Assembly (NCBI RefSeq): GCF_002571385.2
Contig: NW_019217919.1
Location: 478,265 to 542,264, forward strand
Source: Stylophora pistillata
Lineage: Eukaryota
Reading direction: 5' to 3'
Length of the DNA stretch: 64,000 bases
This document shows positions 53,680 to 59,106 of the stretch, in pieces (the first letter of the stretch is position 1; every line of letters begins with the position of its first letter). The notes under the pieces are model-generated. The model worked only from the letters and a program-made list of their open reading frames with translations. It had not been told where the DNA came from and ran no database searches. The position numbers were made by a program, and so were the translations under genes.

Positions 53680-56600
53680 ATGGCGGCGGTGGCGGCTTTG
53701 AGGAATTTAAAAGATGTGGCCCTTCGTACAATAGACAACTTGGCGTCTGAACTTTATGAACTGAACCAAAAGATTTGGAAAAAGCCAGAACTTTGTTACC
53801 AAGAAAATTATGCTCATGAAGTGTTAACTAAATTCTTAAATGATAAAGGATTCGAGGTGACACCCCATCATACCCTGGATACCGCATTCCGAGCAGTCAG
53901 TGGTCGCTGTACCAGACGAATTGTAAGCTTTATTTGTGAGTATGATGCATTACCCGGTATAGGACATGCTTGTGGACATAACCTGATCGCTGAGGTTGGA
54001 GTGGGTGCCGCCCTGGGTGAGTAAAAATCGCCGAATTATGTGTAACACTTGTGGGCTTCCCGCGAGCTCTTCGACTTTGTTTTCGAAATAAGTTTGGGCC
54101 TTAGATAGAATTTGATTTTGTAGCTCTCAGGCTTCAACGTATCCATGATATTGGAGCTTGACTAGTTCCTCTTTCCTGACACAATGTATTGCACGAGCCA
54201 GTACATATATTTTTTTTTTACTGATTTCTACTGCCTTGATATTGTGGTATGGATAATGGTAGGGACGAGAGTTTTTGTAGATGTGTTACCTTCAAACAAC
54301 GATGCTAAGATAACCCCCCCCCCTCCCCTCCTTGGAAACAATGTAGTTTTTGATTTGTTGGAAGGGAAATTTGAAATCAGTGACTGTTATCAATCAGGAA
54401 TAGAGAATTTGTCTCTGCACATAGGGAAGATCGTTTTTATATTTTTTAATTCAAACTCAGATTCATGAAGGTGGAAAGCTGAGCCCTGCTCAAAGCAGTA
54501 TCATGCTGTCTGTAATTTTGCTTTCCTTGTCACTTTTGTCCATCAGTCTTAACTCTTTTGAACAACCTCACTTTTGACTGTGTTTATTTGTTGTTCATAC
54601 AGTTCATATGTCTAAGGCATTCAATAGTATCAGACATGATATTCTCCTTGAGAAGTTACAGAGTATAGGTGTTCCCTGTTCGAGCTTGGAGTGGTTTCAT
54701 AATTACCTGTCTGGTCGTAGCCAGAGAGTGCACATTGGGGATGCTATCTCAGACCCGCTCCCTCTTAAATACGGAGTTCCTCAGGGTTCTATCCTGGGGC
54801 CTGTGTTATTTACCATCTATGTAAATGATCTCTTGTCCGTTCCAACCCACTGCAAATCTGTGTGCTACGTCGATGACTGTAAATTATACCTATCCTTTCG
54901 CTCAACTGACATCGCTCGTGTATTTGGCTATCTGAACAAAGACTTGAGTGAAATCTGCCGATGGTGCTGTCAGAATTCATTCTAATAAACCCAGCTAAAA
55001 CTAAAATCTTACTAGTTGGTGTTCCTCAACTACTGCGGAAATTGCCTCTAACGTCAATTTCACTCTTGGGAAAGGAAATAACACCAGTCCCTGTAGCAAA
55101 GGACCTTGGAGTCTACATCGACCAGTCTTCAACATATAACGATCATATTGCTAAAACTACTTCTAACTGTATTTTCAAACTAGCACAGATCAGTAGCATC
55201 AATCATCAACCATTTGGACAGGAAAACTCTTGACCACATCTCCCAAGGCATAAAATCTCTTAATTGGCTCACTGTTAAGGAGAGACTTTATTTCAATGAT
55301 GCTGTAATGGTATTTAAATGTGTAAATAATTTAGCTCCTGAATATGTGGCTAACACGTTTGTCCCACGATCTCGTATTCGCAGTAGGGTAACAAGATCAT
55401 GTAATCTGCTCCACATCCCACGATGCTGCCTGTCCTCTGGGCAACATGCATTCACCTATTGTGGATGCAAATTGTGGAATAACCTCCCAAAGGACTTAAA
55501 AGCAGCTAAGAATGTAAATGCCTTTAAGTTCTGCCTACTGAATGCGCTCTTTAATGGAAATGTTGTGCAAAGATGAATTGTTTCTATCTTCTATTCTTGT
55601 GTAATTTTTGTATTAGTTCACTAGTGTTTTTAACGTGTACTGGCCTTTTGTATTTATATTGTATTAGCTTTAGATTTACTTATATATATATATATATATA
55701 GTACACAAGGACGGACAACTTCGAGCTAAAAAAGACATATATAAGAAAGTTTAATAAAATACGTTTCGGTCCGAGACCTTCATCAGTTGTAATACAATGA
55801 CTTACAAATTCCTTAAATAGATTTATATAGGGCGTGATGACACATATAAACAAACACAGTAATTACTACGCGAAAAATTATCACAATAAAAAGAAATGGA
55901 AAAATTGTCGAATCCACTGAAAATGTTAAGGAACCAGCGTTGACTTGAAAGGCGAGAATTGTACTAAAATTCCCAATCAACGCTGAGACTGGGACCTTTG
56001 ATGCCCGCCCAATTTGAAAAAATTCTCCGCATTAATTATAGTTTATTCTTTTTTTGGAGTGAAATTCCTGGCGCTTATTCAAGCCGAAGGGTGCCAGAGA
56101 GAACAACTGTGCGCTCCAATATGCTTCTTTGGTAATTAGAAGTTTCTCGATGTTACCTGAATTGTTTACTGTCGCCTGCACTTGATCAATGCATTGGAAT
56201 GAGAAATCGCTTAAATCATGTGGTGTTTTGTTAAAATGTACCGCTACTTCACAGGTCTTTTTCTTAGTGACCATAGCAGACTTGTGGTTGCGAAATCTAA
56301 CTCTAAAGTCATTTGTTGTGGAACCAATGTATTGTAGGCGACATTTCTTGCACGAAGCCAAATAAATTATGTTCTTAGAATCACAGGAAAGTTTCGATCG
56401 TATCTTGTAACTCTTGCCTGTTTGAAAACTTAAAAAGGAATTAGATTCAACCAAGAAGTTGCGACAAAGATCGCATCTTGTTCTATTACATTTAAAACAT
56501 CCCTTGACCTCAGCAACCCCTTCGCTTTCAATGTTAGGGCCATAACGGGATGGCGCCAACAATTCTTTAAGGTTTTTAGATCTGCGAAAGGATGCTATGA

Positions 56601-59106
56601 TGGAATTTGAAGGAAAAAGCTCTTTTAACTTGGGATTGGATTCCAAAATACCCAGATGTTTTTTAATGATGCGACTTACATCAGGTAAATTTGGATTAAA
56701 TGTGGTCACAAATGGGAATAATTTCCTCTTAGATCTGGCATGAGTCCTAAGTAGATCACTTCTAGGTATTTTAAGTTTTCAAACAGGCAAGAGTTACAAG
56801 ATACGATCGAAACTTTCCTGTGATTCTAAGAACATAATTTATTTGGCTTCGTGCAAGAAATGTCGCCTACAATACATTGGTTCCACAACAAATGACTTTA
56901 GAGTTAGATTTCGCAACCACAAGTCTGCTATGGTCACTAAGAAAAAGACCTGTGAAGTAGCGGTACATTTTAACAAAACACCACATGATTTAAGCGATTT
57001 CTCATTCCAATGCATTGATCAANGTCAACGCTGGTTCCTTAACATTTTCAGTGGATTCGACAATTTTTCCATTTCTTTTTATTGTGATAATTTTTCGCGT
57101 AGTAATTACTGTGTTTGTTTATATGTGTCATCACGCCCTATATAAATCTATTTAAGGAATTTGTAAGTCATTGTATTACAACTGATGAAGGTCTCGGACC
57201 GAAACGTATTTTATTAAACTTTCTTAGACTTTTTATTTGAGTATATGTCTTTCTTAGCTTGAAGTTGTCCGTCCTCGTGTACTACAATATTTTTCCTACT
57301 GTTTATCGAGGTTTGGACTGTGAATCCCTTTGGATCCTTCTGGCGCGGCGTCACTGTTGGCTCGAGGCCTTTTAACTTGTTATATATATATATATAATGT
57401 TACTAAATAAATGTTACTATAATATTACAATAATTTAATGTAGGCTTTGTAACTGAAAAACCCAGCTTGGGAGTTGCAATAAACGTATGTATGTATGTAT
57501 GTATGTATGTACAGTGTATTACAGTGTGTAAGAAATGATATTTCTATTTAACTTCAGGTGTGAAGGCAGCACTTGATGTAGTCAAGCAAGACCTGGGGAA
57601 AGTTGTAGTTCTTGGAACTCCAGCAGAAGAAGGTGGCGGAGGCAAAATTAAAATGATTGAAAATGGTTGCTTTGAGGAGGTGGATTTTTGTTTGATGGCT
57701 CATCCTAAATCTTTTAGCTGTATTTATCCAACATGCTTGGCAATGCAAGCTGTTCAGGTCACATATCATGGAGTATCTTCCCATGCAAGTGCTTTCCCTT
57801 GGGAGGGTGTTAATGCATTGGATGCTGCCATCATGGCTTACAATGCTGTCAGTGTGTTGCGGCAGCAGCTCAAACCAACATGGCGTCTGCATGGTGTCAT
57901 CACAGATGGGGGAAGTAAGCCAAACATTATTCCTGAAAAGGCTTCATTAGCATATTATGTGAGAGCTCCCACTGAGGAAGAATTAATGGATTTACGTAGC
58001 AAAGCACATAGATGTTTTGAGGCTGCTTCTCAAGCCACTGGTGTGTTAATTATATAATTATAATCCTTACAATTTGCTGTCTCAGATTAGTCCATATTAG
58101 GACAAATGATGTGTTCTTTTTTTTCAGAAGTAAACTAGCTTGATAGCATGGTTTTGTTTATATAGTTATTTTTTTGAAAGAGTTGAATTGTCTTTAAACT
58201 TGTCTCAGTTTGTGCAAATCTCTGAAATAAAGAACTCAGATACATGGTTCAAGCAAAGACTTAGTGGCCCACAAAACAGAAGCCTATATATAGTATCTTC
58301 AAGTGTTTTCCATGTTAAAAGAGGGGTTATTGCTATTCCCCTCCCCTTGCCAGTCAACCTCAGGTTCCCCTCCCTCACCAAATGTTTCGTCATGCTTTGT
58401 GACAGTTTATCAGTCCTCATTTTTAAACCTGGTTAGAGAGAGGCAGTGTTCAAGTGAAATATCTTGTCCACAAAACACAATGACCTTACCTGGGCTTAAA
58501 CCTTTATTTCTAGACCAGTCTGCTATAATGCAGTGGTATTTCTCACTCAGAGATACTAAAGAGTAATTTTTGAATATGTTTTAATGGACAGATTTCTTTC
58601 TGTAACTTAGTCTTATTTTACTTTTATTGTCTCAAATTTCTAAAATTGTTTGTCCAGAGTTGAATTTTTGTGTGAAAGTTTTTTGTTTTGTTCGTGTTAC
58701 TGCAGGTTGTACAGTGGACATTCACTGGGATTCTATGTTCTATTCCAACATGGCAACTAATGAACACCTTGCAGAGCTTTATGGAGAGAATGCACAGGAC
58801 TTTGGCCTAACATTTCCACCACGTGAAGAACAAGCAAAGGCATCATTTGGTTCCACAGACATGGGAAATGTGTCACATGTTAAACCTTCCATTCATCCAT
58901 ACTTTGACATTGAAACATCTGCTGCAAATCACACTCATGAGTTTACTGCAGCATCAGGGAGGACAGAAGCTCATGACAGGGCAGTTATTCAAGCTAAAGT
59001 CATGGCCATGACAGCATTAGATGTACTGTGTAATGATCAGGCCTGGAAAGCAATTGTAGCAGATTTTGAGAAAGTTCATGGAAGGATGAAACCACGGCTG
59101 ACGTGA
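53680..59106 (+). CDS. PM20D2: Peptidase M20 domain-containing protein 2 (Xaa-Arg dipeptidase / amidohydrolase)
   Basis: Exons 53680-54016, 57558-58040, 58706-59106; 1221 nt = 406 aa. Motifs CEYDALPGIGHACGHNLIAE, LGTPAEEGGGGK, HASAFPWEGVNALDAA, GSTDMGNVSHVKPSIHP, NHTHEF. Confidence 0.95.
55752..55795 (-). ncRNA. Minimal hammerhead ribozyme motif, intact core (antisense copy)
   Basis: Reverse complement reads TACAA-CTGATGA-A-GGTC-TCG-GACC-GAAAC-GTA-TTTTA. Confidence 0.75.
57173..57216 (+). ncRNA. Minimal hammerhead ribozyme motif, intact core (sense to PM20D2)
   Basis: CTGATGA at 57182-57188, stem II GGTC/GACC, GAAAC at 57201-57205, palindromic ACGT stem III. Predicted cleavage after GUA at 57208. 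Confidence 0.75.

What the first reader, a model, noticed from the sequence alone, without database searches (positions are those of the whole stretch)
55681..57395. Young fold-back Penelope in (TA)n with two intact hammerhead cores inside PM20D2 intron 1
Seen: near-identical inverted arms, both 3' ends pointing out into (TA)n, each with CTGATGA-A-GGTC-TCG-GACC-GAAAC-GTA. One copy is sense to the host pre-mRNA. Established: PLE pseudo-LTRs carry minimal HHRs with palindromic stem III that act as dimers. Inference: the earlier-transcribed antisense arm could pair with and mask the sense ribozyme, making the insertion tolerable while producing long dsRNA. (TA)n on both flanks suggests microsatellite targeting.
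Basis: partly seen in the sequence, partly recalled or inferred. Interest (0 to 1): 0.7.

Follow-up and report, generated by a model that had tools for sequence, protein, structure and literature searches.

The report
Routine fold-back Penelope insertion in intron
This is a truncated jumping gene of the Penelope kind sitting as two back-to-back arms in an intron of a coral peptidase gene, a shape that is common in its family and already described, and its tiny self-cutting RNA motif is likely too weak to need the 'masking' that was proposed.

Summary
Real but ordinary. Two 5'-truncated arms of a C-terminal GIY-YIG Penelope-like element (likely Neptune type) point outwards into (TA)n, each with an intact minimal hammerhead core. 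They sit inside an older LINE's 3' UTR in PM20D2 intron 1. The shape is a family norm: 24 of 78 loci examined are outward pairs, 20 of them gap-free, and 48 of 64 3' ends abut TA runs (background 2.5%). Inverted arms, opposite-strand core pairs, TA targeting and siRNA from such arms are all published.

Two corrections. The 100% arm identity is probably assembly collapse: 237 nt are missing at the N, and the same junction recurs at a second locus. Masking looks unnecessary: only one core is sense, it cannot close helix III alone, and unmasked sense cores lie in introns of three other genes.

Of modest interest: arms of one insertion share a subfamily and usually end at different template points (17 of 23), which suggests one double-primed event. 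The scan noted back-to-back arms with two fixed ends before, on other DNA of this genome (e1-9329377).

The parts
53680..54016 (+). PM20D2 (M20 Xaa-Arg dipeptidase) first coding exon; GT donor at 54017
   Evidence: spliced contig of run X5
54578..55680 (+). Older broken LINE (RT fragment and start of its 3' UTR); left flank of the insertion
   Evidence: RVT_1 E 1.6e-16; 40 related places in the genome
55681..55700 (.). Left (TA)n run, part of a pre-existing TA tract of the LINE 3' UTR
   Evidence: empty sites in LINE paralogues are 11-25 nt long
55699..56768 (-). Left PLE arm (1070 nt): end of ORF, 3' UTR/pLTR, core and short 3' end; private 15-nt deletion near the end
55760..55786 (-). Hammerhead core of the left arm (antisense in the host pre-mRNA)
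56032..56768 (-). C-terminal 245 codons of the PLE ORF: linker with C-x2-C-x4-C-x2-C (about 56464-56499), then GIY-YIG endonuclease with two Cys between the IIY and YIG motifs
   Evidence: PF01541, E 7.9e-6; full-length relatives
56768..56769 (.). Fold-back junction, 1-nt overlap; identical junction also at G000:C491
56769..57022 (+). Right arm, first block (GIY-YIG fragment), 100% identical to the left arm; probably collapsed sequence
57023..57023 (.). Single N at which 237 nt of the element are missing; assembly join or real deletion, unresolved (6-nt microhomology)
57024..57381 (+). Right arm, second block: 3' UTR/pLTR, core and long 3' end (tail)
57182..57208 (+). Sense minimal hammerhead core: unpaired A before a 4-bp helix II, palindromic ACGU helix III with no loop, weak helix I; predicted cut 57208/57209
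57381..57396 (.). Right (TA)n run
57397..57511 (+). Rest of the LINE 3' UTR and its (TATG)n tail; contiguous with the left flank in empty paralogues
57558..58040 (+). PM20D2 exon 2 (end approximate); AG acceptor at 57556-57557
   Evidence: M20_dimer E 3.7e-11

Best explanation
This is a 5'-truncated, non-autonomous copy of a GIY-YIG Penelope-like retrotransposon (likely Neptune type), lying as two outward-facing arms in a pre-existing TA tract of an older LINE within PM20D2 intron 1, likely made in one insertion event and likely neutral for the gene. Inferred mechanism: the element's endonuclease cut both strands in the TA tract. Each 3' end then primed reverse transcription on element RNA at an internal TA-containing point downstream of the hammerhead (a proximal one for the left arm, the distal one for the right). 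Both cDNAs stopped early and were joined head to head. The two hammerhead cores are there because each arm carries the pLTR. The sense core is predicted to be inactive alone, so pairing with the antisense arm would be a by-product, not the reason for tolerance. The interior of the assembled copy is probably partly collapsed family sequence.
For: Shown: GIY-YIG ORF end. Full-length relatives with DKG, RT motifs and C-terminal EN. 160 core matches in the genome. 24 of 78 loci are outward pairs against 4 inward, 20 of the 24 with no N between the arms. 3' ends cluster at window-equivalent 57381 (23 of 74 rows), 57298 (16) and 57290-57292 (9), all at TA-containing points, and 48 of 64 abut TA runs. 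Arms of one insertion differ by 4.7% against 8.5% when shuffled (0 of 5000 shuffles, 20 pairs), and 17 of 23 pair a short with a long end (p 0.035 against 0.5). The two flanks are contiguous in empty LINE paralogues. Unmasked sense cores occur in three other introns. Literature: inverted 5'-truncated copy, one-sided tail, TA bias tied to the Cys linker, and assembly trouble (PMC8557442, passages); both strands cut and extended, internal RT start at two sites, ribozyme not needed (PMC11167929, parts 1-2 of 4); opposite-strand min-HHR pairs, monomer inactive (PMC4209133, parts 1-2 of 4).
Against: The true interior is unresolved: an N with 237 nt missing, and the junction shared with C491. Loci with two cores had up to twice the chance of entering the survey, so the true fold-back share may be nearer 15%. 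Four of the 24 pairs are weak (L105, L115, L165, L172); without them the short-plus-long count is 15 of 19. Expression and intactness of the three control genes were not tested. No cleavage was measured. The clade was assigned by motifs, not by a tree with named references. The double-priming step is inferred from anatomy and from a Poseidon element of another clade.
Confidence: 0.8

Rival explanations
1. The outer ends are real but the interior, including the fold-back junction, was filled from another copy by the assembler; true arm lengths and identity differ from what is shown.
For: Abrupt loss of private differences inward in L004, L005, L007 and L008; the identical junction at C491, whose sister L004 has a normal RT-side continuation; a single N with missing sequence.
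Against: Two outward ends need some inversion junction, and the junction pattern occurs only twice in the genome. C491 has no closed second end, so it is the likelier borrower. This rival does not change what the element is.
Confidence: 0.35
2. Two independent single-arm insertions hit the same TA hot spot in opposite orientations.
For: The LINE TA tract is hit repeatedly (C573 has its own fold-back there). The arms differ near their ends.
Against: No TA run lies between the arms and the junction is direct. Outward pairs outnumber inward ones 24 to 4, and arms share their subfamily.
Confidence: 0.07
3. One reading: the sense ribozyme would cut the pre-mRNA, and the earlier-made antisense arm masks it, so the fold-back was tolerated where a single sense arm would not be.
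For: Order of transcription and duplex energy (-344 kcal/mol) would allow masking. Two other fold-backs lie in introns (L170, L127). A preprint reports retrozymes depleted from Xenopus introns (10.64898/2026.07.22.740005, passages).
Against: No cis dimer partner, weak helix I and no monomer helix III. Monomers inactive or protein-dependent in the papers read. Three unmasked sense intronic cores; in L111 the sense core is transcribed before its partner. Splicing can survive a break in the intron (PMC5126111, passage citing Dye 2006).
Confidence: 0.06

Closest known systems
Neptune/Nematis-type EN+ Penelope-like elements (PMC8557442, passages)
   Same: RT then C-terminal GIY-YIG, Cys linker, CCHH, DKG in relatives, hammerhead in the pLTR, 5' truncation, adjacent inverted copy, one-sided tail, (TA)n targets
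   Different: The tail difference is about 80-96 nt, not 30-40. This copy lacks RT and is not a partial tandem. No intact full-length copy was among the 65 matches (61 of 3734 candidates scored).
Minimal type I hammerheads of metazoan PLEs (PMC4209133)
   Same: Unpaired base before helix II, G10.1-C11.1 pair, palindromic loop-less helix III, short helix I; pairs on opposite strands already reported 100-700 bp apart
   Different: Helix II is only 4 bp (7-8 bp in S. mansoni); helix I has a C.U mismatch at the third position; the cores here are 1.4 kb apart
Poseidon PAc of Anolis (PMC11167929)
   Same: AT-rich targets and discrete internal 3' end points that define the tail
   Different: A different clade (Penelope/Poseidon lack the Cys linker); the mechanism was shown in vitro there and is only inferred here
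Rearranged Drosophila Penelope copies with long inverted repeats (PMC3681739, passages)
   Same: Inverted arms as a source of dsRNA/siRNA
   Different: Here transcription would come from the host gene; small RNAs were not tested

Membership tests
EN+ Penelope-like element | [quoted passage not shown] | tested here: met
   ORF 56032-56778, PF01541 E 7.9e-6, IIY..CxxC..YIG and downstream His residues
EN+ Penelope-like element | RT with DKG motif upstream of the endonuclease in one ORF | tested here: met
   Lost from this truncated copy, but present in P0001 (84% identical to family copy L083; this copy matches P0001 aa 481-727 at 86%), P0012 and P0017; RVT_1 hit in P0037 only, 1 of 4 full-length relatives scanned
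EN+ Penelope-like element | pLTR with hammerhead, variable tail, tandem or inverted arrangement | tested here: met
Neptune/Nematis clades | CX2-5CxxC linker between RT and EN | tested here: met
   C-x2-C-x4-C-x2-C at aa 94-105 of the ORF; criterion
Neptune/Nematis clades | RT phylogeny with named references (Neptune versus Nematis) | not tested
   No named reference sequences were on hand; Neptune is preferred because the linker is not reduced
Hydra clade | No CCHH, DKT, CxCX5C linker | tested here: not met
   CCHH and DKG present
Naiad/Chlamys | N-terminal endonuclease, no canonical hammerhead | tested here: not met
   EN is C-terminal; core present
Minimal type I hammerhead | Conserved core, unpaired base before helix II, palindromic helix III | tested here: met
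   no Rfam hammerhead match at E<=1 in 50000-64000, as expected for a minimal form
Minimal type I hammerhead | Helix I of 4-5 bp | tested here: inconclusive
   2 pairs, a C.U mismatch, then 2 pairs; the same register holds in most family copies
Minimal type I hammerhead | Self-cleavage as a dimer or with protein | not testable with these tools
   needs a bench assay

The most novel reading that the evidence does not exclude
The fold-back is the direct product of one integration in which both cut DNA ends prime on a single element RNA, at two different fixed TA-containing points. One arm then ends short and the other long, and both copy the same hammerhead region by strand displacement. This coral family, with dozens of such pairs, would be a genomic record of how Penelope elements make their inverted and tailed forms, which is still open.
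Probability: 0.35. Interest if true: 0.5.

Novelty: new member of a known kind. Interest (0 to 1): 0.22.

Why it matters
The locus itself matters little: it is one of about two dozen such fold-backs seen in this genome, in a shape already drawn in the PLE literature. The family survey has some value. It shows arms of one insertion sharing a subfamily, a bias to one short and one long end, and strict TA targeting, which together give testable predictions for the unresolved PLE integration mechanism. It also warns that perfect arm identity in this assembly cannot be used for dating. If masking were real it would be a new route by which ribozyme-bearing elements survive in genes, but the evidence here is against it.

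Tried and rejected
Rfam scan of 50000-64000 found no hammerhead family. Folding the core region gave nothing better than shuffles (z about +0.6).

Public runs were all short contigs. In X1, X4, X2 and X10, none of the 32 listed pieces (of 58 laid) crosses the fold-back junction. In X1, X2, X10 and X5 no listed piece bridges the N. The tool filters records and a hole proves nothing, so this is not used as evidence. Summed depth over the pLTR (16,000-28,000 against 30.5 on exon 2 in X1) suggests hundreds of copies but is no copy number. Presence or absence of this insertion in other individuals could not be read, because both flanks are repeat and the TA ends were skipped.

Single Ns elsewhere did not settle whether the 237-nt loss is real: other family copies also lose 13-19 nt at a single N. 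I tested whether the TA runs were made de novo and rejected it, since empty LINE sites already hold an 11-25 nt TA-rich tract (13 rows; L046 dropped as a filled site). No fetched long 3' end continued into the ORF.

Intron test: 323 of 7715 candidate frames were scanned. Only 8 of 72 loci could be placed in an intron, too few for a test of orientation bias.

Paper searches found nothing on masking of a Penelope hammerhead in a host intron (0 papers with all five terms) or on twin priming in Penelope (one unrelated review, listing only). Subscription papers are outside the library. PMC3365414 (passages) gave nothing on ribozymes. I read no supplements; those of PMC8557442 may name this family.
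Full report
Observation. The window shows a minus-strand arm at 55699-56768 and a plus-strand arm at 56769-57381, joined directly with a 1-nt overlap, each ending in a pure TA run. Each arm holds the same hammerhead core; the sense one has its predicted cut after 57208. The arms are 100% complementary over 254 and 203 nt. The right arm begins 333 nt further into the element, lacks 237 nt exactly at the N (57023) and extends about 96 nt further at its 3' end. The left arm has a private 15-nt deletion.

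Host. Exon 1 (53680-54016) matches Xaa-Arg dipeptidase (that this is PM20D2 is recalled) and exon 2 matches M20_dimer. The splice sites are GT 54017 and AG 57557, and a contig of run X5 joins the two exons. Runs labelled 'coral metagenome' hold the stretch. The element lies inside an older LINE (RVT_1). In LINE paralogues the two flanks are contiguous across an 11-25 nt TA-rich tract (13 rows of 19 loci, L046 dropped as filled). So both flanks belong to one site and the TA target pre-existed. The same LINE site carries an independent fold-back of this family at C573.

Identity. The left arm encodes the last 245 codons of an ORF with a C-x2-C-x4-C-x2-C linker and a GIY-YIG domain with two internal Cys. 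Longer relatives (40 found, best 84% identical to family copy L083) carry DKG, RT motifs and a C-terminal endonuclease. By the criteria in PMC8557442 (passages) this fits Neptune/Nematis and excludes Hydra, Naiad/Chlamys and Penelope/Poseidon. No tree with named references was built.

Family survey. The 26-nt core occurs at 160 places with at most one mismatch. The first 100 listed form 81 loci by my hand count; 77 were examined (four on small contigs were not fetched), plus C573. Outward pairs number 24 of 78 and inward pairs 4; 20 of the 24 have no N between the arms. Four of the 24 are weak (L105, L115, L165, L172). Two-core loci had up to twice the chance of being listed, so the true share may be nearer 15%. 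3' ends cluster at window-equivalent 57381 (23 of 74 rows), 57298 (16) and 57290-57292 (9). Of 64 scored ends, 48 have at least 8 nt of alternating TA, against 2.45% of 20,000 random 30-mers (8 array rows and 2 N-flanked rows dropped; one of the 64 is a duplicate cut at a locus edge). Arms of one insertion differ by 4.7% in the 64 nt after the core, against 8.5% when partners are shuffled (20 pairs, 0 of 5000). 17 of 23 pairs join a short end with a long one (p 0.035 against 0.5; L161 dropped at a contig end; 15 of 19 without the weak four; 15 of 42 single arms are long).

Assembly caveat. Several copies differ by about 5% near their own flank and by 0-1 bases inward (L004, L005, L007, L008), the signature of collapsed repeats. 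The exact fold-back junction is found at only two places, here and C491. C491 has a different flank, no closed second end, and a sister (L004) with a normal upstream continuation, so it is the likelier borrower, but this is inference. Perfect arm identity therefore does not date this insertion. Near the flanks each arm differs from most young copies at 1-3 positions, which fits fairly recent but not brand new. The N may be a join or a real deletion (6-nt microhomology).

Ribozyme. The core has the min-HHR features of PMC4209133 (parts 1-2 of 4 read). Helix III has no loop and can form only between two copies. Helix I is two pairs, a mismatch and two pairs. The hammerhead-like monomer scores -0.8 kcal/mol against -6.0 for the best fold and -344 for the arm duplex. 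That paper found no cleavage for a single motif and low cleavage for dimers, and already reports pairs on opposite strands 100-700 bp apart. In PMC11167929 (parts 1-2 of 4) the ribozyme cleaved only with the PLE protein and was not needed for insertion. In the host pre-mRNA only one core is sense, so it has no cis partner.

Test of masking. I screened 72 family loci for flanking exons (323 of 7715 frames chosen by a coding score, Pfam, read). Eight could be placed in introns. Three are sense with no antisense arm over the core: L108 (PAN-EGF-fibrinogen gene, gap-free), L157 (SRCR gene, gap-free there) and L123 (PKD1-like, one N nearby, downstream exons judged by eye). Two are antisense single arms (L141, L160), two are fold-backs (L170, L127) and one is a tail-to-tail pair whose sense core is made first (L111). 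Unmasked sense cores thus persist in introns. The sample is small and expression of these genes was not tested. Splicing can also survive an intronic break (PMC5126111, passage). Against my reading, a preprint reports retrozymes depleted from Xenopus introns (10.64898/2026.07.22.740005, passages), though 8 of the 9 dimers it tested did not cleave.

Mechanism. Shown: anatomy, TA targets, discrete end points, and subfamily sharing between arms. Inferred: a double-strand cut in the TA tract, priming from both ends at internal TA-containing points of the RNA, early stop and head-to-head joining. This follows the two-strand cleavage and internal initiation shown for the anole element. Host transcription would give a transient long hairpin in the intron. 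siRNAs from inverted Penelope arms are reported in Drosophila (PMC3681739, passages) but were not tested here.

Verdict. A new member of a known kind, real at its ends and uncertain inside; the special claim of masking is unlikely. Searches for that claim and for twin priming in Penelope found nothing in the library.

Noticed in passing
G000:C342:66701-67326 (L100): Nine head-to-tail 75-nt units, each a PLE hammerhead core plus a short tail and (TA)n, running into an N gap: a minimal-hammerhead array that could dimerise in cis, like a nascent retrozyme.
   Followed up: partly
L009, L019, L076 (3' flanks): A sequence with a canonical-looking type I hammerhead (retrozyme-like, label recalled) directly follows or precedes PLE 3' ends.
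   Followed up: no
LINE 3' UTR TA tract; L046/L104 (C573), L041, L042, L036: The tract is an insertion hot spot: an independent fold-back of this PLE at C573 and other inserts at the same point in further copies.
   Followed up: partly
L005/L091 (C491) and L004/L083 (C1301): These share a PLE 3' end, variants in the core and a LINE flank at 96% identity, but differ upstream; C491 carries the window's junction, probably by misassembly.
   Followed up: partly
L097/L171 (C239:421188-423704): A nested palindrome: both arms are themselves inverted, symmetrical about an N gap, and share private variants.
   Followed up: no
window 57245-57381: The tail begins with an ATG and reads open for 45 codons in most copies; the window's right arm has a C>T at 57260 (41 of 47 other copies have C) that gives a stop. 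It may be the 5' start of the element's ORF.
   Followed up: partly
L103 (C1), L105 (C11), L142 (C325): Short tandem cores 48-150 nt apart on one strand, which could form cis dimers.
   Followed up: no
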